Source: Agarilytica rhodophyticola
Lineage (GTDB): Bacteria; Pseudomonadota; Gammaproteobacteria; Pseudomonadales; Cellvibrionaceae
NCBI RefSeq assembly: GCF_002157225.2
Contig: NZ_CP020038.1
Location: forward strand, 6,010,991 to 6,034,990
Direction of reading: 5' to 3'
Length of the DNA stretch: 24,000 nucleotides
Below are positions 1,150 through 19,620 of this stretch, in pieces (the stretch's first letter is position 1; each line of letters starts with the position of its first letter). The notes beneath the pieces were generated by a model. That model was not told the DNA's origin. It did no database searches and saw only the letters and a program-made list of their open reading frames with translations. The position numbers and the translations under genes were made by a program.

Positions 1150-1431
1150 GTTTTTAAACCATCCATTCAGTTGTTATTGAACTTTACTCCAAAGAGACGA
1201 ACAGCTAGAATCTATTACTCTTGGTAAACAAGAGACAAGAATCTCATCTGACGTCATACATTGTACAACAGTCATCGCTCAATAAAAATTATCACTAGTT
1301 GAATGGCTGAAACTAGCATTAAAGAAACTATAATATTTAAAACGCCCAACTTTCGGTCAACGATTTAGGTTGATTTATTAATTAATACAATAAAGCTGAT
1401 CGGCTTTAAGTAAAAGTTGAGTGACATCACT

Positions 1432-2664: not shown

Positions 2665-2689
2665 ACTAACATAAAAAGCAACTTATAAT

Positions 2690-2724
2690 AGTGTAGAGAG
2701 CTAACAATAAATGCTCTCTACACT
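2690..2724. terminator. hairpin between convergent genes (likely bidirectional intrinsic terminator)
   Basis: Perfect 12-bp stem agtgtagagagc (2690-2701) / gctctctacact (2713-2724) with an 11-nt loop. It lies between the GH16 stop (2664) and the stop of the minus-strand gene (2734). A T-rich tract follows only in the minus direction. Confidence 0.6.
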
Positions 2725-2733
2725 CCCTAGCCT

Positions 2734-3372
2734 CTAACGCTTAAATGTAACAATCAACTCAGGAGGAAAGTCACTTTCCAAAGATGCAAAGGCAATTCCA
2801 TCTCCCCCCTCATCCATTTCCAGTAATAATGATATTTCACCGTTATCACTTAGCAACGATCCGATATCCAGAAGATAAGATTTTCCAGACTTCCACTTAC
2901 CATTCCTGCTACCAATTAGCCCTCCTTTAATTGGTGCGCTAGAGGCCGTCAAATCACCTTCACTCCAATTATTACCCACGCCCCGGTATGCTTTTATCAT
3001 ACCTTTACCGGCATTAGTAATATGTACTTTTAGTTTTACTCCCGAAACAACACCGTCAATATTTTTGACATCGAATTTCAAATAAGCAACATCCTGACCA
3101 TCTTTAACCTGTAAGTTATCTGTATTTCGCCCAAAATCACGCTCTAAATAAGCGTCCTCTGTAGGTTGAAAACGCAATACTTTTTCATTTCTTTCGACGC
3201 TGGGGTATGTTTTATCACGATAAGCTTTAGGTAAAATATTCGCAGCTAAAACTATGGAAGACTGATTAACGTTTCTCTCATTAATTCCGCCAAAAGATAT
3301 ATTGCTATATCCATATGTAACAATTACAAGAAGAGTATTAAATAAACGTTTATTAGAAATAAAACTTTTCAT
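2734..3372 (-). CDS. secreted DNRLRE / CBM96-like domain protein
   Basis: 212 aa with an N-terminal signal-like segment. The body matches the pattern I recall for DNRLRE-type domains: EDAYLERDFGRNTDNLQV....VAYLKFDV......V.GVKLKVH......G.IKAYRGVGNNWSEGDLT. This corresponds to the 'a.lkFDl ... W.E..lT' signature. Confidence 0.65.
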   Translation of the reverse strand: MKSFISNKRLFNTLLVIVTYGYSNISFGGINERNVNQSSIVLAANILPKAYRDKTYPSVERNEKVLRFQPTEDAYLERDFGRNTDNLQVKDGQDVAYLKFDVKNIDGVVSGVKLKVHITNAGKGMIKAYRGVGNNWSEGDLTASSAPIKGGLIGSRNGKWKSGKSYLLDIGSLLSDNGEISLLLEMDEGGDGIAFASLESDFPPELIVTFKR

Positions 3373-8261: not shown

Positions 8262-10358
8262 AGGATTATTAATTGTTAAACCACTATCATGTAGCAGTCA
8301 CGAAAAGTTATAAATTTCAATGGTGTATAATACTTACCGCCACTGTCGGCCTCGACCGCAAATGTAAGGCATATATAACTTATGTGACACCTCCATCATT
8401 CCAAGACAGACAACTGATGTCCCTGCACCTACATTTTCTTCTAACAGCACGTTTAGGTGTTACAACACCCTTATAAATCACATTGTTATCCTGCATTTTT
8501 TACCAGGCTCACAACCGACTTACTTGTCTTTGTATTAGGCTGATATTAGAAGTCATCAGCCTAATTAAGGCTATCCGTACTGTTTAGCGCGTTACCGTAA
8601 CATTTCACACATGACTGGCGCCGATAATCAGTTCACGCTTATCATGCATTCCCTCTATTACCGGGGGTATGCTACACAGGCTAACAATGTGCCATTGTTG
8701 GCTTGTATAATACTTCGTAGAAATACAAAGAGCACATTTTCTTCTTAATATTTGCACATTTCAACGGCATTGTCGCTTTTTTCAACATCAATTTCGCACA
8801 ATTCTAAACGGATCTAGCGTTCAGTAGACCGCTTACAGATACACCACCTTCCCCTCACATTATTCAAACAACAAGGTAAAGATGATTAAAAAAACAAATA
8901 GATTGATTTTTAACCAGAAAATATAAGTGAATATCACGATAAAACTATCACTCAAAAAAATCGCGAAATATAGAGGCCATATTTATATTACTTAAATAAC
9001 GATATTTACCCTGTAAACTGTCTTCTAAACATACAAACGAAAATGTGCGCACCAATATTGCTCATATATTTTCCAATAAAACACCAAGTATCTCAAAGAC
9101 TGTGTGGGGACGAGTGTTTAAGAAATTTGTTTGTTTTTCAAACTAATGTTTGCATGCTAGATTGCGTTCTCTGTGACTCGTTATCCACTTTAATGTAAGT
9201 CATTAAGATTTGAGGACTGATTCAAGATCTCGTCCTGAGTCCATTCTTTTATAAAGCTATATCTAAGGGAAATAGTTTTTTGCAACGAAAAGCTAAGCAA
9301 CAAGTAGCTGAAGAGATACAGGGAGGTTGCTATTGAGAAAGCCAAGAAATTGCCAGTCTTCGCTCATCCACGAGTCAATTTTTGCTTTGGCGTTCTTCTA
9401 TAAGGACAAGTGCCCAAGCCAAGCATTATAGCTAGTCAAAAATCAACATAATATTAATAAACACGTTAATTATTTAACCCCTTTACTGATTAGTAATATG
9501 AGTTACTAACTCCTTTACATTACACTGTAGGTATTATGTAATGACTTGTAATTTAAGTTTTAATCAGGATCAGGTATTTTCATTGTGAAACTCAACAAGT
9601 GAATCTAAGCTGGCACAATTTGCTTCATCATTGAAGCAAAAAAGTACAAATGGCATAGAAATCACATAATTATTTATCACTTAAACTTAGATAGTTTTTA
9701 AGAAAATAAAAAAATACACATTGGAATTTTTATGTAAGTTTTTATTCAATATAGTTTTTTAAAAGCATGTAGAAAGCACCCACTGAGCACTGGAGCTATC
9801 TTAACATACAAATGTAGCACTACAATCGATTGCAGTAAGCTATTGATTGGCTAGGAAAAATAAATCTTATATTTTTATTTTTCATAAGGAAGTTAATTTA
9901 TAAATGGATTATTTAGGTTTTCTACAACTACAGAAATCGAGCCTCAACTCATCTCAAAAAAAAATTACGTCACTTCCATTTAAACGTGACCAACCTTTCC
10001 AGTTGAAAATTTAATTTGTAAAAAATTATTCAATAACATGCAAATTAAAATTTCACAATTATTGAACTTATCAAACTAGTTATATTTCCATTTCAATAAC
10101 TAAGCATATGTGATGACGCATAACTCTCTTTAATTTTGTAAGAACATAAAAAAAACCGTATAGGCAATGAATTAACCCTATAAAAAACTTTTCGTCCCGC
10201 CTAATTTAAACATTCAAAAACCACGTAGGCTAAGTGGGGCCAGTGGCGACTATACCTCTAACGCATCTTAAGAAAATAGGTGCCAAATAAATTAGAAAGC
10301 TCGCCAAAAATGAAATTAGCATCGCTTAGGTAAGCTATTATTTTTTAAGGAATCAGAA

Positions 10359-11831
10359 ATGAAAATTTTCTCAGATACTAATAACTACAAAGCTAATAAT
10401 ATCCAGAGTACCAAAAATCACTATCAGCTACAGTTTTGCCTCACCAAAATATTAGATAGAGCTAACCTCAAGAATGGCGCCATATACTTCTACAAAACAA
10501 ACCAAATTGATGCGCCAAAAAAACCACTAGAACTCTCATTTAACTTTGGAAAAGTTCCTGCTGAACAATGTACTAGCTATCCAATTCTTTACCAAAGAAA
10601 AAAGATTGGGGACTTACTTTTAGATAAAGATCAAGAATCTCAAGAGCAGATCTATAACTTGTCCGAGATAACAAAAAGCATGGCACTATTATTTAAACGT
10701 TTCAAAACTAATGAATGTGCTGACCAAGCAGGTAGTGAATATCCTGTTCTTGTTGGGTTTAGCGAACAATCATTGGCCTTGGAAAGTTTTATAGAAAAAT
10801 CATCCGATAGCATCTCCCCTGTCATTATCGAAGGTGACCACGGAAATGAAATGTCAGCAATTGCAAGAGCAATACACGATAATAGCCACCTGATTAAAAA
10901 GAAATATAGAGAGATAGATTGCTCAACCAGTAGCAATATAGACGAGAGAATAAAGCAAGCATGGAAAGAAAGTATAGGTGGTAGCCTTTATCTACACGAG
11001 ATCAATGAATTATCCCTAGAGTTACAATGTCATTTAATACAGCTATTACATGGCGACGTAAAAATTATAGCATCATCAACTCGACCACTAGAACAGTTGG
11101 TACACGAAGGGAAATTTTATCGTCAATTATATACCGCACTGAATTTTCTCAAAATACATATCCCTCCACTAAGAGAGCGAAAAGAAGACATCCCATATAT
11201 GCTGAATCAACTGATTCTAAAATATAGATGCTACGATAACCAAACATTAACTGAAGAAACAAAGCAAGCTTTGTATAATTTTGATTGGCCTGAAAATTAT
11301 ATGCAACTCGAACGAGTAATGGCTAAGCTGCTAGCCCTATCAAATAGTAATCCTATAGAACTTCACGAACTAAAACTGGTACTACCTACCATATGCTCAA
11401 ATATTAAAAACAACGAAAATCTATATCCTATACCAACAAAAATAGATTTACTAGGTTGCTTAATAAATAAAGATTATCGTGAACTATCAGGGTTACACAT
11501 TGCATTGAGAAGGTCTCTGCAATACCTAGCCGAAAATTACTCTGAAAGCATTACCCTAGAGAAGCTCTCCATGAAAGCGCATGTTAGTTCATCACACTTA
11601 TCCTTTCTATTTAAATATCACTTAAATAAGAGCTTCAAAAAAGTTCTTGCAGAACTTCGAATAGAACAAGCCAAAAGACTATTCGAAAACTACCCTTACA
11701 AACGGGTTACCGACATATGTCTTGAAGTGGGTTTCGGGGATCTCAGTCATTTCGAGAAAATATTCAAACGCTATACAAAAATGACACCAAGAAGCTATAA
11801 AGATAGTTTCCATAGAAAATGTTTCTATTGA
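10359..11831 (+). CDS. transcriptional regulator: GAF-like N-domain + degenerate sigma-54-activator-type AAA+ domain + AraC-type HTH
   Basis: Central region aligns to the bEBP core (LVGFSEQSLALESFIEKSSDSISPVIIEG..., GGSLYLHEINELSLELQCHLIQLL, EGKFYRQLYTALN...IHIPPLRERKEDIPYML, FDWPENYMQL). The C-terminus is a typical AraC/XylS double HTH (ITLEKLSMKAHVSSSHLSFLFKYHLNKSFKKVLAELRIEQAKRLF....VTDICLEVGFGDLSHFEKIFKRYTKMTPRSY). Confidence 0.85.
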   Translation: MKIFSDTNNYKANNIQSTKNHYQLQFCLTKILDRANLKNGAIYFYKTNQIDAPKKPLELSFNFGKVPAEQCTSYPILYQRKKIGDLLLDKDQESQEQIYNLSEITKSMALLFKRFKTNECADQAGSEYPVLVGFSEQSLALESFIEKSSDSISPVIIEGDHGNEMSAIARAIHDNSHLIKKKYREIDCSTSSNIDERIKQAWKESIGGSLYLHEINELSLELQCHLIQLLHGDVKIIASSTRPLEQLVHEGKFYRQLYTALNFLKIHIPPLRERKEDIPYMLNQLILKYRCYDNQTLTEETKQALYNFDWPENYMQLERVMAKLLALSNSNPIELHELKLVLPTICSNIKNNENLYPIPTKIDLLGCLINKDYRELSGLHIALRRSLQYLAENYSESITLEKLSMKAHVSSSHLSFLFKYHLNKSFKKVLAELRIEQAKRLFENYPYKRVTDICLEVGFGDLSHFEKIFKRYTKMTPRSYKDSFHRKCFY

Positions 11832-11929
11832 AAGAAGTTCACTAATTTAACTGATTTATTCATATATTAGTCCAATTAAGCCTAATCAAATGGACTTATT
11901 ATTTACACAAATAAAAAATAGGAAAAGAT

Positions 11930-12148
11930 ATGAGTAACTCAACACCACAAGAGATATGTAATACTTTAATTAAGGAATATGATCCAAAAATTTCAAGTTT
12001 AATGTTAGTTCAAGTGGTAGCTCAGTCACTGGGAAATGCAGCACAAAATGCTACTTTTTCGCAACAGCAGCAAAACATAATAATAAATACGAATACAGCT
12101 ATAAGTGCAAGCCTTCTCCACTCTATAGGTTCTGCATATTCACAATAG
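11930..12148 (+). CDS. Reb-like small protein, short subfamily (B1)
   Basis: 72 aa with AGGA RBS at a 6-nt spacer. Carries the core VAQSLGNAAQNATFSQQQQN shared with the RebB-like paralogs downstream, but lacks their N-terminal VNEQxTDSVTQ motif. Confidence 0.65.
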   Translation: MSNSTPQEICNTLIKEYDPKISSLMLVQVVAQSLGNAAQNATFSQQQQNIIINTNTAISASLLHSIGSAYSQ

Positions 12149-12231
12149 TGATTTCGTTCTTCGCCAAATTTAAAAGGGACACGTAAAACGAAGTCAAATA
12201 GATTTCATTAATATATAACAGAGGTAATAGT

Positions 12232-12492
12232 ATGCCAGTAAATGAACAAGTTACAGATTCAGTCACACAAGTAAACTCAAAAGTTGTTGGCGAAACGCCG
12301 GCTATGACAATGGGCAATATAATTTTATCATCAGGGCAAGCACTAAGCACGTCAGCTTTAAATGTTGCCAGTGGGCTAAACCATGGAAGCATTACAATGC
12401 AAGCCGCAACTATACAAGGTATTAACTCTCTAGTAGCGACTGGCACATCAGTGCTAGGTCGTGTGTCTGAGGAAGTTGTTGAAAAAGGTTAA
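12232..12492 (+). CDS. RebB / 'killing trait' family R-body subunit paralog (A1, divergent centre)
   Basis: 86 aa with GAGG RBS at a 7-nt spacer. N-terminus is MPVNEQVTDSVTQVNSKVVGETPAMTMG, C-terminus ITMQAATIQGINSL...GRVSEEVVEKG. It is paralogous to 12671 and 14311. The antisense ORF 12123..12446 is a shadow. Confidence 0.88.
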   Translation: MPVNEQVTDSVTQVNSKVVGETPAMTMGNIILSSGQALSTSALNVASGLNHGSITMQAATIQGINSLVATGTSVLGRVSEEVVEKG

Positions 12493-12670
12493 TTTTATAA
12501 TGAGAGGAATTAGCTCTACAAAATTACTTTATTTCGGTAGTCTTTTAGAGCATTGATTCGCTTATACTTATTAGTTTGTTAACTAATAATATGATCGAAA
12601 GGGCTAGTACAGCCAATTAAAACGATGTTTTATTACATCATGTTAAACTATTTAAATTAGGATTTTAATT

Positions 12671-12934
12671 ATGCCAGTAAATGAACAAGTTACAGATTCG
12701 GTTACACAAGTAAATACTAAAGTTGTCGGTGAAACACCAGCGATGGCAATGGGTAATTTACTTATGTCAACAAGCCAAGCTTTAGGTAACGCTGCACATA
12801 ACGCTACTGCAGCACAACAACAAGCACAAATAACAATGCAGGCTGCCACAGTACAAGGTGTTAATTCACTAATGTCTATTGGTAGCTCCGTTATCGGGCG
12901 TAGTGCAGAAGGAATTATTGAGAAAGACGGTTAG
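12671..12934 (+). CDS. RebB / 'killing trait' family R-body subunit paralog (A2)
   Basis: 87 aa: MPVNEQVTDSVTQVNTKVVGETPAMAMGNLLMSTSQALGNAAHNATAAQQQAQITMQAATVQGVNSL. This matches my recollection of the PF11747 RebB signature (INSQITDSVTQ...LG..PA.AMG.LYQ...hs.GLAMQNAV..QQ). A strong terminator follows. Confidence 0.9.
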   Translation: MPVNEQVTDSVTQVNTKVVGETPAMAMGNLLMSTSQALGNAAHNATAAQQQAQITMQAATVQGVNSLMSIGSSVIGRSAEGIIEKDG

Positions 12935-12952
12935 TAAGTTGCATTAGATTTT

Positions 12953-12990
12953 AACCTTCATTACGTGAGAAAACGTAATGAAGGTTTTAA
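12953..12990 (+). terminator. rho-independent terminator after reb paralog A2
   Basis: Perfect 13-bp stem aaccttcattacg (12953-12965) / cgtaatgaaggtt (12974-12986), with 8-nt loop tgagaaaa, followed by tt. It lies 19 nt after the stop. Confidence 0.75.
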
Positions 12991-13046
12991 TAGTTCCCTC
13001 CTACTATTAGACTGTTCACTCTTTTATAACTAACGGCAGAAAAGCA

Positions 13047-13358
13047 ATGTCAAATATCAATCAACCCCCAGAGCCAAGCTATACAGCAGTTGCAAATGCG
13101 CAACAATCAATCGCACAATCTACAGCCTTAGCGTTAGCAGATGCTACAGATAATTTAAGAAACCTTAATACATTAAGCACCACAGCCATAGGCGTAGCAT
13201 TATCACAATATATAGAAACAGGTGACGAAAAATTTAGCTCAATTATTGAAGAGGCACAGCAAGTCGTAACTAGAGGCACAGAAAACTTTAGCGCTGTAGG
13301 CGAGAAAATTGCTGTTGTATTACATGAAAAAAATGACTCAGAAAAAACTGAAAAATAA
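13047..13358 (+). CDS. Reb-associated small protein, subfamily C (C1)
   Basis: 103 aa. Clear paralog of 14948..15214 (compare AQQSIAQSTALALADATDNLRNLNTLSTTAIGVALSQYIETGDEKF with AQQAVAQTTAIAVQDAADNLRNISTVTSTAIGVALAQLLATGDEKY). Ala/Thr/Gln-rich helical, with a distant resemblance to the Reb core. The antisense ORF 13079..13375 is a shadow. Confidence 0.75.
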   Translation: MSNINQPPEPSYTAVANAQQSIAQSTALALADATDNLRNLNTLSTTAIGVALSQYIETGDEKFSSIIEEAQQVVTRGTENFSAVGEKIAVVLHEKNDSEKTEK

Positions 13359-13573
13359 AAATTTACCAATTTCATTTACTTTTAAACATTAAAATGATCT
13401 TTCTATGCTCTATAGCATATTGGTATTAAAACAAGCATATAACGTAAACAGAGATAAACTTATCATCATTTTACCCGATTATTTACTATATTCATCGAAT
13501 ATTCTTTGCTTTATAAATAGTACCTTTTAGTTTTTGTTAAGAATAACCCAAAACAAACATGATAGGAAACAAC

Positions 13574-14023
13574 ATGAATGAAACTGAAAGTAAAGGCACA
13601 GAATCCGAGAGCACACCTGAAGAAATAAATCCTTTTTCAAGTCAAGCTACAGGTTTGGTGGAGACAACTTTCGCCGAAACTCTAGGCCTGGCTATGCACA
13701 ACGCAGTGACAAATCAACAAAACTCTCAAATGACAGCTTCGGCTTCTATAACAAATGCTTGTGCTCGTTTATTGCAATCGCCTACTCCTAAAAAACCAAA
13801 GCCAAAATCAAAGGCGCTTAATGATAATGAATCAAGTAAGGAAATTGATTCGGAAGATGGAAAGGATGATAAGAATGCATTATCGAAGAAACCGAAGTCT
13901 TGGTTAAACGTTAAAAATTTTATGAAGCGAAAACCAAAAGATGAAACTCCAGCACCGGATGAATCGGATGATGATCATCTAGAAAGTAAACAACAGTCCA
14001 CGGCACCAAAGAATGAAGAATAA
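13574..14023 (+). CDS. Reb-like short-subfamily core (B2) fused to a long charged low-complexity tail
   Basis: I prefer the ATG at 13574 (AGGA with 7-nt spacer) over 13559. Core is AETLGLAMHNAVTNQQNSQMTASASITNACARLL, followed by about 85 aa rich in K/P/D/E/S (PTPKKPKPKSK...DDKNALSKKPKSW...KRKPKDETPAPDESDDD). Confidence 0.75.
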   Translation: MNETESKGTESESTPEEINPFSSQATGLVETTFAETLGLAMHNAVTNQQNSQMTASASITNACARLLQSPTPKKPKPKSKALNDNESSKEIDSEDGKDDKNALSKKPKSWLNVKNFMKRKPKDETPAPDESDDDHLESKQQSTAPKNEE

Positions 14024-14277
14024 TGACAGACCTACAAAAGATAATGAATGATATAGATGATCATATCAAGTCTATTTCTGATTTGAATAAAAACCAAATG
14101 AATTTAGTTGATGAATTGGTAAGTAAGAATGAAAAGGATATCGAAGCCTATCAAGCTTTTAATGACGCAGATGAGATCAATGAAAAAGTGGCAAGTATGA
14201 TACAAAAAGTCACAGATGAACTTGATTCGGCAGTAAAAGATATTAAGGATAGAATAAAGGTAGGCGACATGAAATAG
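14023..14277 (+). CDS. small acidic coiled-coil protein (hypothetical, reb-cluster associated)
   Basis: 84 aa. Its start overlaps the previous stop (TAATG at 14021-14025), suggesting translational coupling. Heptad-like, D/E/K-rich sequence with no Reb motif. Confidence 0.6.
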   Translation: MTDLQKIMNDIDDHIKSISDLNKNQMNLVDELVSKNEKDIEAYQAFNDADEINEKVASMIQKVTDELDSAVKDIKDRIKVGDMK

Positions 14278-14310
14278 CAAAGAAAGAAAAATAAATTATG
14301 AGGAAAAATA

Positions 14311-14574
14311 ATGGCAACAGTTAATGAGCAGATTACAGATTCAGTTACTCAAGTGAATACAAAAACACTAGGTGATGCACCCGCGATGGCGATGGGCAGC
14401 CTATTTACCGCCACGAGCCAAGCATTATCAAATGCTGGGTTAAACTCCACCACGTCTCAGCAACATGCGGGAATTACCATGCAGGCAGCTACTGTTCAAG
14501 GAGTCAATTCTTTAGGCGCTATAGGAAGTGCTGTATTAGGAAGGGCAGCGGAAGCTGTTGTTGAAAAAGGATAG
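14311..14574 (+). CDS. RebB / 'killing trait' family R-body subunit paralog (A3)
   Basis: 87 aa with GAGGA RBS at a 6-nt spacer. Sequence MATVNEQITDSVTQVNTKTLGDAPAMAMGSLFTATSQALSNAGLNSTTSQQHAGITMQAATVQGVNSL. This is the closest of the three to the canonical RebB N-terminal motif as I remember it. Confidence 0.9.
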   Translation: MATVNEQITDSVTQVNTKTLGDAPAMAMGSLFTATSQALSNAGLNSTTSQQHAGITMQAATVQGVNSLGAIGSAVLGRAAEAVVEKG

Positions 14575-14585
14575 AACTTAGTTCT

Positions 14586-14611
14586 AGGCCTACTTATAGG
14601 TAGGCCTTTTA
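14586..14611 (+). terminator. rho-independent terminator after reb paralog A3
   Basis: Stem aggcctac (14586-14593) / gtaggcct (14600-14607), 6-nt loop, followed by tttt. It lies 12 nt after the stop. Confidence 0.7.
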
Positions 14612-14724
14612 TGAAGCACTAGAATCGTGAAGCTAAAATATTAAATAATTTAGTAATAGTCTTTTAAAACCTCAAATATAGAATATTCTTCATCCCTTCC
14701 TATCGTCAAATATTCGGGTGTATC

Positions 14725-14907
14725 ATGGCACAAGAAGAGACAGAAAAAATAAGTAATATAATAAACGAATTAAGCGAGGCTACTTTAGCCGATACTATCG
14801 GGTTAATGATGGAAAATGCTGTAACCATACAACAAGGGATGCAAACAGTAACTAATGCTTCAATATCTTCATCTTGTGCTTTAATACTGGCGCAAGGTGG
14901 TGGCTAA
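14725..14907 (+). CDS. Reb-like small protein, short subfamily (B3)
   Basis: 60 aa. Core LADTIGLMMENAVTIQQGMQTVTNASISSSCALILAQG is collinear with B2 (FAETLGLAMHNAVTNQQNSQMTASASITNACARLLQS). The RBS is weak. Confidence 0.65.
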   Translation: MAQEETEKISNIINELSEATLADTIGLMMENAVTIQQGMQTVTNASISSSCALILAQGGG

Positions 14908-14947
14908 TATGTATCTCATAACAATCATAGTTTTTCCTAAATAAACC

Positions 14948-15214
14948 ATGTCAGATAACTCAGCAAAACTCAAAGCTCAACAAGCAGTTGCACAAACAAC
15001 GGCAATCGCTGTGCAAGATGCGGCTGATAATTTACGAAATATTAGCACAGTTACCAGTACAGCAATTGGTGTCGCTTTAGCTCAACTACTCGCTACAGGA
15101 GATGAAAAATACATTAAAGTGATAGATGAGGCAGAAAAAGCTTTGGCGAGTGCTGTTGAAAATTTTGCCACCGTAGGTGAAAAGGCGGCAAAAATATTAG
15201 AAGGATTTTCTTAA
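14948..15214 (+). CDS. Reb-associated small protein, subfamily C (C2)
   Basis: 88 aa. Paralog of 13047..13358 along its whole length (also ENFATVGEKAAKIL versus ENFSAVGEKIAVVL). No obvious SD, but the paralogy supports it as a real gene. Confidence 0.75.
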   Translation: MSDNSAKLKAQQAVAQTTAIAVQDAADNLRNISTVTSTAIGVALAQLLATGDEKYIKVIDEAEKALASAVENFATVGEKAAKILEGFS

Positions 15215-15242: not shown

Positions 15243-15869
15243 TTACACATCATATGCAACCACACATAAACGCTCTCCCCCATTTCTCTTGATTTGACTT
15301 AGACGTGCGATACTGGTGCTGCCATTCAAACTTGTGTCAAGAACATACGAGCACCTCTTATTATTATCTAGAGGTTTCAGTAGATTAATATCTTTGTTTT
15401 CAAAATTTCCATTAAATACAAATATAGTATTAATAGACAAAGATGGATTTTCTTTCTTTAGATGTTCAACTCTTATCATATCATTTTCAAATATTGCAAG
15501 CTGTCTATTACTCTTTAATGAAATTGAGTCACTACATCTAACCTCAAAATGTTGAGTCTTTCCATCACACTCAAAACTGAAGTCACTTCTAGACGCACGC
15601 CTTTTTTCCATTACTTTAGTTACACCAGTTTTAGCATGGTAGTGCAAAAAACGGGCACTGCTATTTTCATCATTATCAACTCCAGATGCACAATAATAGT
15701 CTTCGACACTAATTTTATCACTTAATTTTTCACAAGAAAAAAGTAGCGCCATTTCAGTTGTAAACCATTGTTTCCAGGACTTACTAAGATAATCATTTTT
15801 AAAAACATCATAAGCTTTAGAGAAGTTATAGTTCTTTTGAATTATTGAAAGTAATAATTGTGAGTTCAT
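15243..15869 (-). CDS. hypothetical protein (no confident family; weak PD-(D/E)xK-like strand pattern)
   Basis: 208-aa ORF with ATG start, convergent with the reb cluster. It is the last of three co-oriented genes with short gaps. The SDFSFECDGKTQHFEVRC segment is only loosely nuclease-like. ORF 15316..15555(+) is a shadow. Confidence 0.65.
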   Translation of the reverse strand: MNSQLLLSIIQKNYNFSKAYDVFKNDYLSKSWKQWFTTEMALLFSCEKLSDKISVEDYYCASGVDNDENSSARFLHYHAKTGVTKVMEKRRASRSDFSFECDGKTQHFEVRCSDSISLKSNRQLAIFENDMIRVEHLKKENPSLSINTIFVFNGNFENKDINLLKPLDNNKRCSYVLDTSLNGSTSIARLSQIKRNGGERLCVVAYDV

Positions 15870-15921
15870 AGTTATTTTTCATCTTGTTTTTAATAGTAAT
15901 TTATTTATTAATAATATTTAT

Positions 15922-16230
15922 TTAGATTATTTTAAGTGCGGTATCCGTTAAGCGAGACATCGCTGAATTTACCGCCTTTTGTACAGTAGATCGACCTATA
16001 ATTTCCAATGTTATAATTTCGGCCTCGATAATATCCCTCTCCCTTTCCAATTCGAATGCAACATCATCTTTACTTATATCGCCATTTTTATATGCTACAA
16101 TCAAATCACCAAATAGTTGATTGCGACTAATCAAAGCAGTGGAAAACTCATTTTTTATGGCGTCCTCATAAGAACTCAAAGAATCCAAAGCATCATCTGA
16201 CATTTTCTTTATAATATCTGAAACATTCAT
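15922..16230 (-). CDS. hypothetical small helical acidic protein
   Basis: 102 aa with ATG start and AAGG upstream. It lies 28 nt downstream of the previous minus-strand gene and 52 nt upstream of the next. No family recognised. Confidence 0.6.
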   Translation of the reverse strand: MNVSDIIKKMSDDALDSLSSYEDAIKNEFSTALISRNQLFGDLIVAYKNGDISKDDVAFELERERDIIEAEIITLEIIGRSTVQKAVNSAMSRLTDTALKII

Positions 16231-16258
16231 ATTTATAACCTTACTGTTAATTTCTAAC

Positions 16259-16699
16259 TTAATTTTTTGAGGGTTTAGATGATTCTCCGCGAATCATTGC
16301 TCTAAATAGCCTTTTATAATTGTCACGGCCACGCTTTATAAAAAAATCACCTAATTCAACTTTATTTTTATGTCTTTCTATATCTGAATTCCAGGAGTTA
16401 ATTACTATATCTACTTGTTTTAATGTTAATTCATTAAACGGTCTACTTTCCTGCCTAGACTTCAGCCTATTTAAGCCTGCAGCCACATTAATGTAGTAGT
16501 CTTTAAAATTTATAAATGTTCGTTCACTTCTATCGACGTGACTCATATGGATGTACATACGATCAATATTTTCTGCTATTTGCTCCATTTGAAAAAGTGA
16601 CTCTTCATCATAGTCTGAAATAACATTCAACAAACAACCATATTGGAGAGCTAAAGCTAAATACACACTACACTTGAAGTACTTATAAAATAAAAACAT
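16259..16699 (-). CDS. hypothetical protein with hydrophobic N-terminus
   Basis: The track gives a TTG start at 16714. I prefer the ATG at 16699, preceded by GAGGGA (the spacer from GAGG is 5 nt). N-terminus MFLFYKYFKCSVYLALALQYGC could be a signal or anchor, although the lipobox is non-canonical. The rest is a charged helical region. Confidence 0.6.
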   Translation of the reverse strand: MFLFYKYFKCSVYLALALQYGCLLNVISDYDEESLFQMEQIAENIDRMYIHMSHVDRSERTFINFKDYYINVAAGLNRLKSRQESRPFNELTLKQVDIVINSWNSDIERHKNKVELGDFFIKRGRDNYKRLFRAMIRGESSKPSKN

Positions 16700-16902
16700 A
16701 GATCCCTCATTCAAGATTTTACGATTTTGACATTATGGTTTTATATTCAATAAAAACTACGCACAATCCACTAAAAATTGAACAAATTATTTATAAAAAA
16801 TAATTAATAGTAAATTTAAACGAATTTACGGTTGTTTATTTTTAGTTTTGGAACTGTCAAATTGACATTATTCGATAACATACTGTGACGGGGATAGAAT
16901 AA

Positions 16903-17535
16903 ATGAGCATTAAACTAACGAATGATGATTTGAAAAATATAATGCCAAAATCTTCATTAGATAATATCGAGTTTTACCTACCATCTCTAAATAGGAAAAC
17001 ATCAGAATTTGGCATATTAAGCCCACTTCAATTAGCACATTTTATCGCTCAAATAGCGCATGAAAGCGGTAGTTTTAATTATAAAGTTGAAAACTTGAAT
17101 TATAGCACCGGAGCTCTAAGAGCTGTTTTTGGAAAATACTTCGAAGATGAATCTACCGCAGAAGAATATGCGCGCAAACCGGAGAAGATCGCCAACGTAG
17201 TATACGCAAATCGTATGGGCAATGGTGATACAGCGTCTGGAGACGGATGGCGTTATCGAGGGCGGGGTTTAATTCAGTTAACAGGGCGAGATAACTATGC
17301 TTCTTGCAGTAAAGCAATAGGTGTTGACGTAGAAAAAAACCCAGATTTATTAGCTGGCGATGCAGACGTAATTGTAGCTGCAGCTTGCTGGTTTTGGCAA
17401 TCGAGAGGGCTCAACCAACTAGCGGAGCAAGATGATATTAAGCAGATAACTAAGAAAATAAATGGTGGTTATAATGGTTTAGATGATCGCAAAGAATATT
17501 TGGTAAGAGCAAAGAAAACTTTTCATATAAAATAG
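16903..17535 (+). CDS. glycoside hydrolase family 19 protein (phage/pyocin-type endolysin-like muramidase, 'putative chitinase')
   Basis: 210 aa, no signal peptide. Motifs LAHFIAQIAHESGSFNYKVENLNYS (catalytic Glu pair) and YRGRGLIQLTGRDNY, plus INGGYNGLDDR, are typical of small GH19 lytic enzymes such as the P. aeruginosa pyocin lysis enzyme family. Confidence 0.88.
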   Translation: MSIKLTNDDLKNIMPKSSLDNIEFYLPSLNRKTSEFGILSPLQLAHFIAQIAHESGSFNYKVENLNYSTGALRAVFGKYFEDESTAEEYARKPEKIANVVYANRMGNGDTASGDGWRYRGRGLIQLTGRDNYASCSKAIGVDVEKNPDLLAGDADVIVAAACWFWQSRGLNQLAEQDDIKQITKKINGGYNGLDDRKEYLVRAKKTFHIK

Positions 17536-17550
17536 AAAGAGGATAAAATC

Positions 17551-18390
17551 TTGAAAAACAAAAAAGAGTTCTATGATTTACTGGAATCATTCAATAGCTC
17601 GGATGACATTTTTAAAATATTTCAGAGTATAGAAAACAATATCAATCACTACGCAAAGAAAATATATTCAGATAGAATAAAATCTAAAAAAACTGGTGTT
17701 CCTTTATTAGATTGGTGGATTGCATGTAGCACTCTACTTATTAATAAACAGTTAATCATAAGTGATGTTAACTTTGATGATAAATCTGATAAAGGTAAAG
17801 AATTTATAGAGATATATAACCGTGGCCCCCTCATTGTCGATATCTCTCAATTCTCTATTAATGCTGGCGACCAGGGACAGGATTTTACATTCCCCGACCA
17901 CCTCATTATGTATCCGGGACAAAGGATTAAGGTTCACACATATGTCGGCGAGGGTTTCAATTTCAACAGCAAGCGGCCTATATGGAATAATAAAGGAGAC
18001 GTAGCTTTCCTTTATGATAATCAAGGTGATCTTATTTCATCCTGGGCATATGGTATGGCAGCACAAAATCATATCAAAATTAAATATATAAATTATGACG
18101 GCGAAGAGAAATATACAGAAGGTGATGAGTATGTCGAGATAGAAAATAACAGTACTCATCAAATAGATATATCGGGATGGCAATTGCAGTCAAATAAAAA
18201 TCAAGTTTTCACTTTTCCTAATAACACAAGTATTTCACCATCTGCTGTTATACGTATTTATACGAATTTTGTGGATACCATCACTGGTGGTTTTTCTTTT
18301 AATAGTGCAACCGCCATATGGAATAACAAGGGTGACAAAGGGACACTTATAGATGCTCAAGGCAAAACCGTAGACGAATACTTATATTAG
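17551..18390 (+). CDS. protein with two lamin-tail (LTD) domains and a helical N-terminal region
   Basis: 279 aa, TTG start with AGAGGA at a 7-nt spacer, 15 nt after the GH19 stop. Two repeats carry the LTD signature: GKEFIEIYNRGPLIVDISQFSI....DFTFP....PGQRIKVHT....FNFNSKRPIWNNKGDVAFLYDNQGDLIS, and GDEYVEIENNSTHQIDISGWQLQ....VFTFP....PSAVIRIYT....FSFNSATAIWNNKGDKGTLIDAQGKTVD. Confidence 0.82.
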   Translation: MKNKKEFYDLLESFNSSDDIFKIFQSIENNINHYAKKIYSDRIKSKKTGVPLLDWWIACSTLLINKQLIISDVNFDDKSDKGKEFIEIYNRGPLIVDISQFSINAGDQGQDFTFPDHLIMYPGQRIKVHTYVGEGFNFNSKRPIWNNKGDVAFLYDNQGDLISSWAYGMAAQNHIKIKYINYDGEEKYTEGDEYVEIENNSTHQIDISGWQLQSNKNQVFTFPNNTSISPSAVIRIYTNFVDTITGGFSFNSATAIWNNKGDKGTLIDAQGKTVDEYLY

Positions 18391-18405
18391 AGGCTATTCA
18401 GGCTT

Positions 18406-19503
18406 ATGTTGAAAGATAAAGATGCGGAAAATGGCAATATATCCTTAGATATTATAAAAATTGTTGATGATAGCCAACGATTGATTTCATACATAGCCAA
18501 AAATGGTGATATTGAGCTTGATCCTGATGTCACAAATATTATTGTACAAGCCAAATACAAAATATCAGAAAACCAATGGGGCTCCGAAGATGAAGTAATT
18601 TTTTTATCTAACTATGACAAACTTGCAAAGATAATATACCCGGTTACAGTCGAAAGCTTAAATGCAATCATTCCTACTTATGAAGGAAAAAGAAGGAAAA
18701 AAACTAATGCTGAAAAGGCTGTATCCTGGTATAGGAGAAATACAATATTCGCTTTAATATTTCTTTTGACTATACAAGCATACTGGCTTTTCGGTCACCA
18801 GATAAGAGCAAATTTAATAGAAAATATATCTGAGAGGAAAATTATAAGTGAAGAAATAGAAGATTTATCTCCAGGTGACAAAAAACTAAAAAGACTAAAA
18901 AGTGATCTCAACTTACAAAACCAAGAGTTTGATGCTAATAATAGTTTACTGAATAGGTGGAATAAAGTGTGGTCGTTCGGTGCTGAATTCAAAGGTACGA
19001 TGCCAAAATATTTTCAAACAGTCTATGAAGGTAAGAAATCTGAGATAGAAAGCTATGCAGATGCTAATAACCAAGCATTAGTTGAATTAGAACAGTCTCA
19101 TATTTTACATACAGAAAGGATTAAGTTATTTGAAAACATTCTCTCATCAGGTTTTGTTTTAGATACATTTCAAGGATATTTTTTACCACTACTTTATGGT
19201 TTACTAGGAGCATTTATTTTTATTTTGCGAACACTCATGATGGAAATAAAATCTATGACATACACAATGAATTCAGAAATAAAATTTCGCCTTCGTTTAA
19301 CACTGGGAGCTCTGGGTGGAATGATTATAGGATGGTTTCTAAAGCCCGATAACACAGATGCTCTTGCATCTTTGTCTCCTATGGCTCTTGCCTTCTTAAT
19401 GGGCTATAACGTAGATGTATTATTTTCAATAATGGATCGAATTGTTGATAACATAAGTCAGAGTATTAACAAAAATGAAAGTAATCTACATCAAAGCAAG
19501 TAA
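18406..19503 (+). CDS. membrane protein: soluble N-domain, TM1, long coiled-coil, three C-terminal TM helices (hypothetical)
   Basis: 365 aa, 15 nt after the LTD gene stop. Hydrophobic helices lie at about residues 113-130 (IFALIFLLTIQAYWLFG), 256-276 (FLPLLYGLLGAFIFILRTL), 297-312 (LTLGALGGMIIGWFL) and 322-342 (LSPMALAFLMGYNVDVLFSIM). ORF 18795..18992(-) is a shadow. Confidence 0.8.
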   Translation: MLKDKDAENGNISLDIIKIVDDSQRLISYIAKNGDIELDPDVTNIIVQAKYKISENQWGSEDEVIFLSNYDKLAKIIYPVTVESLNAIIPTYEGKRRKKTNAEKAVSWYRRNTIFALIFLLTIQAYWLFGHQIRANLIENISERKIISEEIEDLSPGDKKLKRLKSDLNLQNQEFDANNSLLNRWNKVWSFGAEFKGTMPKYFQTVYEGKKSEIESYADANNQALVELEQSHILHTERIKLFENILSSGFVLDTFQGYFLPLLYGLLGAFIFILRTLMMEIKSMTYTMNSEIKFRLRLTLGALGGMIIGWFLKPDNTDALASLSPMALAFLMGYNVDVLFSIMDRIVDNISQSINKNESNLHQSK

Positions 19504-19590
19504 AAATGTTGCTAATCTATGATGCGAATCAATGTAATAACCTTTTATTTCAATTGTATGAATTTGGGCATTTAATATAATTAGGATTTG

Positions 19591-19620
19591 ATAGATATCA
19601 TACATGATATCTATTTTTTA
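19591..19620 (+). terminator. rho-independent terminator of the GH19/LTD/4TM operon
   Basis: Perfect 10-bp stem atagatatca (19591-19600) / tgatatctat (19605-19614), 4-nt loop, followed by tttttt. The stem is AT-rich, so stability is modest. Confidence 0.6.

What the first reader, a model, noticed from the sequence alone, without database searches (positions are those of the whole stretch)
16903..19503. GH19 muramidase - tandem-LTD protein - 4TM protein operon next to the R-body genes: candidate lysis/release or payload module
Three tightly spaced genes (15-nt gaps) end in a terminator at 19591-19620.
- The first is a signal-peptide-less GH19 lytic enzyme, of the kind used as an endolysin in phage and pyocin lysis cassettes.
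- The third is a multi-TM protein that could serve as a holin-like or pore-forming partner.
- The middle gene is a double lamin-tail-domain protein with no export signal.

No phage structural, tail or integrase genes occur anywhere in the window, so this is an orphan lysis-like cassette. Its position beside the reb cluster suggests two hypotheses. (a) Programmed autolysis of a subpopulation releases R-bodies. (b) These proteins are the so-far-unidentified toxic cargo delivered when the R-body ruptures a predator's phagosome. Either would be a new functional linkage for R-bodies.
Basis: inference. Interest (0 to 1): 0.7.

Follow-up and report, generated by a model that had tools for sequence, protein, structure and literature searches.

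The report
Wall-breaching gene module tied to R-bodies
Three co-transcribed genes beside the R-body genes (a phage-type cell-wall-cutting enzyme, a double lamin-tail-domain protein and a four-helix membrane protein) belong to a gene set that travels with R-body genes in many marine bacteria and probably helps the R-body burst its own cell, which would explain how these protein springs get out.

Summary
Three ORFs lie at 16903-17535, 17551-18390 and 18406-19503, separated by 15-nt gaps and followed by a hairpin plus U-run at 19590-19620. They encode a signal-less GH19 endolysin-type enzyme, a signal-less 2xLTD protein and a 4-TM protein with no known family.

The source is Agarilytica rhodophyticola.

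The key test, neighbourhood conservation, is positive.
- Of 80 genome loci with a homologue of the 4-TM protein, 38 carry the LTD gene beside it.
- Of those 38, about 35 also carry a signal-less peptidoglycan hydrolase, either GH19 or the unrelated PF11860 muramidase.
- 30 carry the lipoprotein/small-protein pair that sits on the opposite strand here (15922-16714).
- Reb clusters lie from 59 bp to about 32 kb away, in at least six different arrangements.
- Every module-bearing taxon I could check also has reb genes.
- The converse fails: some reb clusters lack the module.

Only GH19 is phage-related. The LTD and 4-TM proteins have no phage matches, and there is no canonical holin or spanin.

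Best reading (about 0.5): an R-body accessory module that breaches the producer's wall. This fits published data that R-bodies rupture lysozyme spheroplasts but not walled E. coli. The roles of the LTD and 4-TM proteins are inferred.

The cargo hypothesis is disfavoured. Co-regulation in this genome is not shown.

The parts
16903..17535 (+). GH19 endolysin-type peptidoglycan hydrolase, 210 aa, no signal peptide
   Evidence: Pfam PF00182 2.5e-13 and PHROG 181 endolysin 2e-84. PDB relatives are the PWe1 endolysin (6e-44) and the SPN1S endolysin 4ok7. 1312 phage records carry homologues, up to 58.7% identity. The AHES...ENLNYS catalytic motif is conserved in all 23 family members.
17551..18390 (+). 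Cytoplasmic protein of 279 aa: an N-terminal helical region of about 70 aa plus two lamin-tail domains
   Evidence: Pfam LTD 7.9e-39, two stretches. No signal peptide in any of 39 orthologues. No match in 50,697 phage genomes. Adjacent to the 4-TM gene in 38 of 80 loci.
18406..19503 (+). Inner-membrane protein of 365 aa with no described family. Predicted layout: cytoplasmic N-domain, TM1, periplasmic four-helix insert, TM2-4.
   Evidence: No hit in four HMM libraries. Hydropathy and positive-inside charges. AlphaFold2 pLDDT 83.6, pTM 0.71. No significant fold match in PDB or BFVD. 185 homologues, with 28 invariant columns in the 87-sequence alignment.
19590..19620 (+). Intrinsic-terminator-like hairpin (11-bp stem) plus U-run that ends the operon
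   Evidence: RNA fold -12.2 kcal/mol, z = -2.59 against shuffles.
16715..16902 (.). 188-bp divergent intergenic region between the GH19 operon and the m151 operon. It presumably holds both promoters.
   Evidence: Sequence. Only weak sigma-70-like matches. The best match to the reb-type upstream motif is 5.0 bits, at 16808-16825.
16259..16714 (-). Probable lipoprotein ('m151'; the likely true start is the ATG at 16699). It belongs to the same conserved module.
   Evidence: Orthologues directly follow the 4-TM gene on the same strand in 30 of the 38 LTD-bearing loci (32 loci in all). The family alignment shows a signal peptide and an invariant Cys in an L-[SA]-[GA]-C lipobox. The window's version (Q-Y-G-C) is atypical.
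15922..16230 (-). Small soluble helical protein ('m102'), always paired with the lipoprotein gene
   Evidence: Found in 32 loci, immediately downstream of m151. No family hit.
15243..15869 (-). 208-aa conserved protein ('m208'), function unknown, part of the reb-associated accessory set
   Evidence: Homologues lie at the end of the module operon in Vibrio, Marinomonas and Grimontia, and next to the reb genes in L001 and Thalassomonas. The only family-library hit is a marginal PADLOC match (PtuB, E = 0.0098). The single-sequence structure model is unusable.
11930..15214 (+). reb (R-body) gene cluster: six RebB-family genes plus three non-Pfam small genes
   Evidence: Pfam RebB hits. The same gene order is seen in relatives.
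10359..11831 (+). Regulator: a sigma-54-activator-type AAA+ domain (no GAFTGA loop, degenerate Walker A) fused to an AraC-type HTH
   Evidence: Pfam. The sequence was read directly. Orthologues flank reb clusters in relatives.

Best explanation
The GH19-LTD-4TM operon, together with the divergently transcribed lipoprotein/m102/m208 genes, is an accessory module of the 'marine gammaproteobacterial' type of R-body cluster. Its most likely job is to breach the producer cell's own envelope when the R-body is deployed.

**Shown**
- Gene 1 is an intact phage-endolysin-family peptidoglycan hydrolase with no export signal.
- The hydrolase-LTD-4TM triad is conserved. The hydrolase is either GH19 or the unrelated PF11860 muramidase.
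- The triad is usually followed by an outer-membrane-type lipoprotein gene.
- The module occurs only in reb-carrying genomes (all those checked), from 59 bp to about 32 kb from the reb genes.

**Inferred**
- The hydrolase accumulates in the cytoplasm of R-body-forming cells.
- It reaches the murein either through the 4-TM protein, acting in place of a holin, or when the extending R-body tears the inner membrane.
- Wall degradation then lets the extending R-body burst the cell, releasing itself and the cell contents.
- The 4-TM protein (periplasmic helical domain) and the lipoprotein may act on the periplasm and outer membrane in the way spanins do.
- The LTD protein may be an adaptor or regulator that ties the hydrolase or the R-body to the 4-TM protein. 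Its role is the least constrained step.
For: **Enzyme identity**
- Endolysin identity and a conserved catalytic motif.
- No signal peptides in GH19, LTD or the PF11860 proteins.

**Conserved gene order**
- 38 of 80 loci have LTD next to the 4-TM gene. 33 of these have a peptidoglycan hydrolase in the flank (20 GH19, 13 PF11860), mostly directly upstream.
- The two V. coralliilyticus-type loci carry PF11860 about 6 kb upstream (PMC7457808 Table 2), raising the total to about 35.
- The hydrolase type follows the 4-TM phylogeny, which indicates one non-orthologous displacement followed by co-inheritance.
- The lipoprotein and m102 follow in 30 of the 38.

**Linkage to reb**
- Reb clusters lie within the fetched flank in nine LTD-bearing loci plus L030 and this window, in differing arrangements.
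- Distances elsewhere: about 12 kb in Vibrio THAF64, 20 kb in P. luteoviolacea and about 32 kb in Thalassomonas.
- A reb-cluster-specific protein family has only 85 clusters among 5.8 billion proteins. Those clusters cover the same taxa and often the same contigs as the 4-TM family.

**Published experiments**
- R-body extension ruptured lysozyme-made E. coli spheroplasts (36% stayed intact). 95% of walled cells stayed intact (bioRxiv 10.1101/029587).
- The PA14 model leaves open how the producer's wall is breached (PMC8322103).

**Regulation in relatives**
- A motif trained only on reb and regulator upstream regions is enriched, strand-specific and position-specific upstream of module genes.
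Against: - There is no canonical holin or spanin. The 4-TM protein resembles no holin in sequence or fold and is about three times the usual size.
- The LTD protein and several further conserved cytoplasmic proteins of the set (m102, m208; c4, c13/c27 and c10/c19 in relatives) have no role in a simple lysis scheme.
- Thalassomonas and Gammaproteobacterium 45_16_T64 keep LTD-4TM without an adjacent hydrolase.
- A few 4-TM homologues inside the clade lack LTD, hydrolase and reb in their flanks.
- Some reb clusters lack the module: V. aquimaris, Photobacterium GJ3 and Caedibacter pKAP298. It is therefore not needed to make R-bodies.
- In this window the shared upstream motif is essentially absent before GH19 (5.0 bits) and before m151 (1.8 bits).
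- No expression or phenotype data exist.
Confidence: 0.5

Rival explanations
1. The module serves R-body biogenesis or positioning rather than lysis. LTD and the 4-TM protein would anchor or organise the R-body at the inner membrane. The hydrolase would only remodel the wall locally, as dedicated lytic enzymes do for flagella and secretion systems.
For: - LTD-4TM is the most constant pair and persists without an adjacent hydrolase in some genomes.
- The LTD protein is cytoplasmic, as the R-body is.
- Many extra conserved cytoplasmic partners exist.
- In L030 and L051 the 4-TM gene abuts the reb genes directly.
Against: - Reb clusters without the module exist.
- Reb genes alone make R-bodies in E. 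coli (PMC3583457; bioRxiv 10.1101/029587).
- Machine-associated wall-remodelling enzymes are normally exported, whereas both hydrolase types here lack signals.
- GH19 of this type is a whole-cell lysis enzyme in phages.
Confidence: 0.2
2. A general programmed-autolysis or envelope module (for example for DNA, vesicle or other weapon release) that merely shares an island and perhaps a regulator with the reb genes, without acting on R-body function.
For: - In P. luteoviolacea and Thalassomonas the module sits 20-32 kb from the reb genes, among unrelated genes.
- 4-TM homologues occur in other contexts.
- A GH19 endolysin drives explosive cell lysis in P. aeruginosa (own knowledge, not checked here).
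Against: - Every module-bearing taxon checked has reb genes.
- Linkage is kept through at least six different rearrangements.
- A shared upstream motif is found in relatives.
Confidence: 0.12
3. The three proteins, or the LTD protein alone, are the toxic cargo delivered to a predator when the R-body ruptures the phagosome.
For: - The toxin of R-body systems is unidentified (PMC3583457).
- The island genes correlate with oyster-larva killing in V. coralliilyticus (PMC7457808).
- The LTD protein has no assigned function.
Against: - The hydrolase slot is filled by two unrelated enzymes whose common substrate is bacterial peptidoglycan.
- Gene 3 is a polytopic membrane protein.
- No toxin domain was found in any library.
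- The correlation in Vibrio applies to the whole island and does not single out these genes.
Confidence: 0.08
4. A decayed prophage or pyocin lysis cassette that lies beside the reb genes by chance.
For: GH19 has abundant phage homologues annotated as endolysins, often next to holins.
Against: - LTD and the 4-TM protein have no match in 50,697 phage genomes.
- No phage genes occur in the window or in the related loci inspected.
- The gene set is conserved with reb genes across many genera.
- Raymann et al. found no prophage link for reb loci.
Confidence: 0.03

Closest known systems
Type 10 secretion systems / domesticated lysis cassettes (Yersinia entomophaga YenLC releasing Tc toxin; Serratia ChiWXYZ; Salmonella TtsA)
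   Same: - A signal-less, phage-derived peptidoglycan hydrolase is encoded next to a large cytoplasmic weapon.
- Release occurs by lysis of a specialised subpopulation (PMC10847048).
- Here too the enzyme is endolysin-family and the 'cargo' is cytoplasmic.
   Different: - T10SS membrane parts are recognisable phage holins and spanins. Here they are replaced by a 365-aa 4-TM protein, a tandem-LTD protein and a helical lipoprotein of about 125 aa, none with phage relatives.
- The cargo is an R-body that can itself generate force.
Phage holin-endolysin-spanin cassettes and the P. aeruginosa pyocin Hol/Lys (PA0629) lysis genes
   Same: - The GH19 protein is 45-59% identical to phage endolysins and similar to a solved 'putative lytic enzyme'.
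- The operon contains parts addressed to all three envelope layers: a cytoplasmic enzyme, an inner-membrane protein with a periplasmic helical domain, and a lipoprotein.
   Different: - No small holin, no embedded Rz1-type gene and no phage or tailocin structural genes.
- Gene order and protein sizes differ.
- Extra conserved cytoplasmic proteins are present.
Group 1 reb synteny partners HP1.1-HP1.4 of Raymann et al. 2013
   Same: - Conserved hypothetical proteins found only near reb loci and proposed as functional partners or toxin candidates.
- The window's 13047, 13559 and 14725 genes fit HP1.2, HP1.3 and HP1.4 by size and order.
   Different: - The hydrolase, LTD, 4-TM and lipoprotein genes were not described there.
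- HP1.1 (~360 aa) has the size of the 4-TM protein. However, the Azospirillum plasmids that carry reb genes (Raymann et al. report all four HP proteins on the A. brasilense Sp245 plasmid) give no 4-TM match, so identity is unlikely.
- A 2026 survey explicitly ignored non-Reb neighbours.
Vibrio coralliilyticus RE22 reb island (Kehlet-Delgado et al. 2020, Table 2)
   Same: It lists the orthologous genes: muramidase PF11860, LTD protein, 320-aa, 140-aa and 99-aa hypotheticals, Reb proteins and an AraC-type regulator. I found the same order in Vibrio THAF64.
   Different: That paper treats them as island genes correlated with virulence and gives no functional reading. The hydrolase there is PF11860 rather than GH19, and it is separated from LTD by four inserted genes.

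Membership tests
GH19 endolysin-type peptidoglycan hydrolases | Sequence match to the GH19 family above the curated threshold | tested here: met
   PF00182, 50.8 bits against a cutoff of 25.5. PHROG 181, 2e-84.
GH19 endolysin-type peptidoglycan hydrolases | Catalytic Glu pair in the HES...EN motif | tested here: met
   IAHESGSFNYKVENLNYS aligns with the same motif of a solved endolysin. It is invariant in 23 orthologues.
GH19 endolysin-type peptidoglycan hydrolases | Muralytic activity on peptidoglycan | not testable with these tools
   Needs a zymogram or turbidity assay.
Canonical phage-type lysis cassette / T10SS | A holin: a small membrane protein related to phage holin families | tested here: not met
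   The 4-TM protein is 365 aa. It has no meaningful PHROG, Pfam or NCBIfam hit, no tblastn match in 50,697 phages, and no fold match in BFVD or PDB. No small TM ORF lies in or beside the operon.
Canonical phage-type lysis cassette / T10SS | A cytoplasmic endolysin without a signal peptide | tested here: met
Canonical phage-type lysis cassette / T10SS | Spanins: an inner-membrane coiled-coil protein plus a small outer-membrane lipoprotein, or a unimolecular spanin | tested here: inconclusive
   A lipoprotein (m151) and an inner-membrane protein with a periplasmic helical insert exist. Neither resembles known spanins in size or sequence.
reb (R-body) accessory gene set | Conserved physical linkage to reb clusters in several genera and arrangements | tested here: met
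   Distances range from 59 bp to about 32 kb.
reb (R-body) accessory gene set | Presence only in reb-carrying genomes | tested here: met
   All named taxa with the LTD-4TM module also appear in the Reb or orf_13047 hit lists, often on the same contig. This was not checked for the few MAGs whose 4-TM gene lacks LTD.
reb (R-body) accessory gene set | Co-regulation with the reb genes | tested here: inconclusive
   A motif trained on reb/regulator upstream regions is enriched upstream of module genes in relatives (21/52 against 13/152 at >=9 bits; Fisher p = 8e-7). It scores only 5.0 bits before GH19 in this window. No transcript data are available.
Lamin-tail-domain (LTD) proteins | Match to Pfam LTD above threshold | tested here: met
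   132.8 bits against a cutoff of 34.3, two domains.
Known anti-phage defence systems (PADLOC) | Match of the components to a defence-system model set | tested here: not met
   Only a domain-level LTD match to a candidate 'SNc+LTD' protein. GH19 and the 4-TM protein give no match.

The most novel reading that the evidence does not exclude
The LTD protein, the 4-TM protein and the lipoprotein form a previously undescribed, non-phage envelope-breaching device. It couples a mechanical actuator, the extending R-body, to enzymatic wall destruction. In this reading the R-body itself acts as the membrane-opening step (a 'mechanical holin') that lets the stored muramidase reach the wall. LTD and the 4-TM protein position or gate this event. 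This would be a new class of programmed lysis and would supply the missing partner machinery of R-body killing.
Probability: 0.22. Interest if true: 0.85.

Novelty: new variant of a known kind. Interest (0 to 1): 0.68.

Why it matters
R-bodies have been studied since the 1930s, yet two questions remain open: which partner proteins make them harmful, and how the producing cell is opened. Surveys of reb loci either listed unnamed 'hypothetical' partners or ignored non-Reb neighbours. In the library searched, the only paper that mentions both a lamin tail domain and R-bodies merely tabulates the genes.

This work shows that a wall-cutting enzyme travels with reb genes. Two unrelated enzyme families fill the same slot, and each comes with the same LTD, 4-TM and lipoprotein partners. 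That yields a concrete hypothesis testable by deletion or reconstitution for how R-body cells burst. It also explains why R-bodies alone could not rupture walled E. coli.

Three further points follow.
- The work defines a new membrane-protein family.
- It assigns a cytoplasmic context to a bacterial LTD protein.
- It offers parts for engineered R-body 'pistons' that work in intact cells.

Tried and rejected
**No result for the source locus**
- An exact-sequence look-up of the window's 4-TM protein found no contig on record.

**4-TM protein**

**Ideas that proved wrong or unsupported**
- I thought Pseudoalteromonas contigs break upstream of GH19 because of reb repeats. This is wrong: the neighbour is tuf.
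- I guessed that a 198-aa ORF in L001 was a third lysozyme type. Neither Pfam nor PDB sequence search confirmed it.
- The 112-aa ORF upstream of GH19 in P. luteoviolacea, considered as a holin, is a secreted soluble protein.
- HP1.1 of Raymann et al. as the 4-TM protein is unsupported. The reb-carrying Azospirillum plasmids give no match, and the supplement has no accessions.

**m208**

**Regulation**
- No sigma-54 promoter or shared repeats link the window's reb and GH19 promoter regions. Repeats were at chance level.

**Wider comparisons**
- A search for a peptidoglycan hydrolase near the reb genes on Caedibacter pKAP298 found none.
- The Ralstonia megaplasmid hits to the C-terminal TM module are unlinked to reb genes.
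- The V. coralliilyticus chitin transcriptome supplement lists only the top-10 genes. TW71_18840 (50-fold up) may lie in the island, but I could not map the locus tag.


Full report
**1. Observation**

They lie at 16903-17535 (210 aa), 17551-18390 (279 aa, TTG start) and 18406-19503 (365 aa), with 15-nt gaps. An 11-bp hairpin plus U-run at 19590-19620 ends the unit. The generic scan missed this hairpin because the stem is AT-rich.

- Gene 1 matches Pfam GH19 above threshold and PHROG 181 'endolysin' at 2e-84. Its closest solved relatives are phage endolysins (6e-44), with the HES...EN catalytic motif aligned.
- Gene 2 has two lamin-tail domains.
- Gene 3 matches nothing in Pfam, NCBIfam, PADLOC or PHROGs.
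- None of the three has a signal peptide.

The rest of the window holds ordinary chromosomal genes and no phage genes. An identical 4-TM protein is on record from Agarilytica rhodophyticola.

**2. The decisive test: neighbourhoods**

I aligned 22 homologues of the 4-TM protein and fetched 80 genome loci with 10-kb flanks. I then searched their six-frame ORFs with all window proteins and clustered the neighbours without prior labels.

- In 38 loci an LTD gene directly precedes the 4-TM gene.
- In 33 of these a signal-less peptidoglycan hydrolase lies in the flank, nearly always immediately upstream.
- In 20 loci the hydrolase is GH19. In 13 it is a 296-aa protein that Pfam identifies as N-acetylmuramidase PF11860 (1.5e-65).
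- The two V. coralliilyticus-type loci carry the same muramidase about 6 kb upstream, behind four inserted genes (PMC7457808 Table 2).

A neighbour-joining tree of the 4-TM proteins puts all LTD-linked members in one clade, with a GH19 sub-clade and a PF11860 sub-clade. So the enzyme was swapped once for a non-homologous enzyme of the same activity, while the partners stayed. That is the strongest argument that peptidoglycan cleavage is integral to the module.

**3. The module is larger than three genes**

In 30 of the 38 loci the 4-TM gene is followed on the same strand by homologues of the window's minus-strand ORFs 16259-16714 and 15922-16230. In Agarilytica this pair, together with 15243-15869, has been inverted. 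It now forms a divergent operon that shares the 188-bp region 16715-16902 with GH19.

- The 151-aa family has a signal peptide and an invariant Cys in an L-[SA]-[GA]-C lipobox, so it is a lipoprotein. The window's lipobox is atypical.
- Relatives add further conserved proteins of unknown function: c4, c13/c27, c10/c19 (DUF6765), c20, and a partial paralogue of the 4-TM protein, c7. None of these is in the window.

**4. Link to R-bodies**

Complete reb clusters lie inside the fetched flanks in loci from Gammaproteobacterium 45_16_T64, Photobacterium (two species), Celerinatantimonas, Marinomonas (two), Grimontia, Vibrio (two) and Oceanospirillum. There are at least six different arrangements. 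In two loci the reb genes abut the 4-TM gene directly: 59 bp in L051 and 488 bp in L030.

Where no reb gene was in the flank, it was further along:

| Genome | Distance from module to reb |
|---|---|
| Vibrio THAF64 | about 12 kb |
| P. luteoviolacea CPMOR-2 | 20 kb, same contig |
| Thalassomonas RHCl1 | about 32 kb, same contig |

A reb-cluster-specific non-Reb protein (13047-13358) has only 85 clusters among 5.8 billion proteins. The Reb hit list shows the same overlap.

The converse does not hold. V. aquimaris, Photobacterium GJ3 and Caedibacter pKAP298 have reb genes without the module nearby. M. mediterranea keeps only a c4 homologue within 10 kb. The module therefore depends on reb genes, but reb genes do not depend on the module.

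**5. Not a prophage remnant**

- GH19 has homologues in 1312 phage records, up to 58.7% identity.
- The LTD and 4-TM proteins have none in 50,697 phage genomes.
- The related loci I inspected gene by gene contain housekeeping genes, not phage genes.
- Raymann et al. also found no prophage association for reb loci.

**6. The 4-TM protein**

Hydropathy and charge distribution predict this layout: a cytoplasmic N-domain (1-110, preceded by KRRKK...RR), TM1, a periplasmic region of about 110 aa, TM2, a basic cytoplasmic loop, TM3, a short loop, TM4 and a cytoplasmic tail.

AlphaFold2 with 87 sequences gives a confident all-helical model (pLDDT 83.6, pTM 0.71). Long helices run through TM1 and TM2 into a four-helix periplasmic bundle. 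Foldseek finds no significant match in PDB or in viral models.

More distant homologues (about 30% identity; Burkholderiales, Thiotrichales, Desulfobacterota, Cytophagales) pair instead with a secreted DUF2914-like protein of about 190 aa. They show no hydrolase, LTD or reb genes. The family is therefore older than its R-body association.

**7. Regulation**

The regulator at 10359-11831 has a sigma-54-activator-type AAA+ domain. It lacks the GAFTGA loop and the Walker A lysine, and it carries an AraC-type HTH (sequence). It probably works with sigma-70.

I trained an expectation-maximisation motif only on upstream regions of reb and regulator genes from 20 loci, which gave CCATTAATTAAGCCGATT. 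The motif scores higher upstream of module genes than upstream of control genes:

- Mann-Whitney p = 2e-5.
- 21 of 52 module upstream regions against 13 of 152 controls reach 9 bits or more (Fisher p = 8e-7).
- The sites favour the coding strand and start about 70-95 nt before the start codon.

Related genomes are not independent, so these p-values are optimistic.

In the window the motif sits before reb genes at 11839, 11860, 12601, 13463 (17 bits) and 14925. It reaches only 5.0 bits before GH19 and 1.8 bits before m151. Co-regulation is therefore plausible in relatives and unproven here.

**8. Mechanism**

Published work supplies the rationale. R-body extension ruptured E. coli only after lysozyme treatment: 36% of spheroplasts stayed intact against 95% of walled cells (bioRxiv 10.1101/029587). 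The current model for P. aeruginosa invokes 'kamikaze' cells and leaves open how the bacterial wall is breached (PMC8322103).

A cytoplasmic muramidase stored in R-body cells would solve this problem. I therefore favour a wall-breaching accessory module. How the enzyme crosses the inner membrane is inferred. It could pass through the 4-TM protein, or through the tear made by the R-body. The lipoprotein and the periplasmic domain of the 4-TM protein could handle the outer layers. The LTD protein has no assigned step.

**9. Rivals**

An anchoring or biogenesis role for LTD-4TM is the main alternative. It is compatible with genomes that keep the pair without an adjacent hydrolase. A general autolysis module, a toxic cargo and a prophage remnant are progressively less likely, for the reasons given under each rival.

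**10. Comparison and novelty**

The closest known systems are type 10 secretion systems and pyocin or phage lysis cassettes. The endolysin requirement is met. The holin requirement was tested and not met. The spanin requirement is inconclusive. So the module works like these systems, but I do not file it as a member.

In the searchable literature, only one paper mentions both a lamin tail domain and R-bodies, and it merely tabulates the genes. The 2026 reb survey ignored non-Reb neighbours. I rate the finding a new variant of a known kind, with real potential to make the R-body release and partner question testable.

Noticed in passing
window 15243-16714 (- strand): Three unannotated-looking ORFs between the reb genes and GH19 are conserved members of the same reb-associated set. 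16259-16714 is a probable lipoprotein, 15922-16230 a small helical protein and 15243-15869 a 208-aa protein with invariant D/E/R residues. In most relatives they are co-oriented with the 4-TM gene; here they are inverted.
   Followed up: yes
window 8262-10358: About 2.1 kb upstream of the regulator gene has no ORF of 70 aa or more, low GC (0.30-0.36), no Rfam family and no tRNA. It may be a long regulatory region, decayed genes or an unknown RNA.
   Followed up: partly
window 10359-11831: The regulator has a sigma-54-activator-type AAA+ domain without the GAFTGA loop and with a degenerate Walker A (GDHGNEMS), fused to an AraC-type HTH. Thalassomonas carries two tandem copies (L088/L089).
   Followed up: partly
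window 11839-11877, 12601-12618, 13463-13480, 14925-14942: A candidate cis-element (consensus about TCATTAATTAAGCCGATT, with a CCGAT core) recurs upstream of reb genes in the coding orientation. It also occurs upstream of reb and module genes in other genera.
   Followed up: partly
window 12671-12934 and relatives: This 87-aa Reb protein is 90-100% identical across Agarilytica, Saccharobesus, Thalassomonas, Vibrio, Marinomonas and Celerinatantimonas. The accessory proteins of the same loci are only 35-60% identical. This reflects either extreme constraint or recent transfer of the structural genes.
   Followed up: no
window 13047-13358 and 14948-15214: These two small non-Pfam genes inside the reb cluster are paralogues of each other: iterative searches with either one find both in every locus. 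The family has only 85 clusters in the 5.8-billion-protein collection.
   Followed up: partly
L052-L080 (e.g. L066 9274-9856, L053, L071): Distant homologues of the 4-TM protein in Burkholderiales, Thiotrichales, Desulfobacterota and others are preceded in 17 loci by a secreted protein of about 190 aa with a weak DUF2914 match. This is a different two-gene pairing of unknown function.
   Followed up: partly
L078 9944-12269: In a Methylococcaceae MAG a distant 4-TM homologue is followed directly by a GH19 enzyme that carries what looks, by eye, like an N-terminal peptidoglycan-binding domain. A gene that reads as an anhydro-MurNAc kinase follows. There are no LTD or reb genes.
   Followed up: no
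L090 13203-15098; L094 15046-16853: TIR-domain genes (with a SLATT gene in L090) sit right after the reb cluster in a Thalassomonas-like metagenome contig and in Colwellia. These may be defence genes sharing the island.
   Followed up: no
L083 5902-8504 and the ends of L014-L028, L049: Many Pseudoalteromonas assemblies break 0.1-1.2 kb upstream of the GH19 gene. In the one contiguous assembly the neighbour is the elongation factor Tu gene (tuf), so the breaks probably reflect the duplicated tuf gene, not reb repeats.
   Followed up: yes
V. coralliilyticus S2052 (PMC5209532, Table S3): TW71_18840, a 'hypothetical protein' 50-fold up on chitin, lies 24 locus tags from the induced reb genes (TW71_18705-18720). 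By gene count it could fall at the muramidase end of the reb island. I could not map the tag to a sequence.
   Followed up: partly
window 1417-3372: A GH16 enzyme with ricin-type lectin domains and a CBM96 protein are ordinary algal-polysaccharide genes, consistent with an agarolytic host and unrelated to the finding.
   Followed up: no
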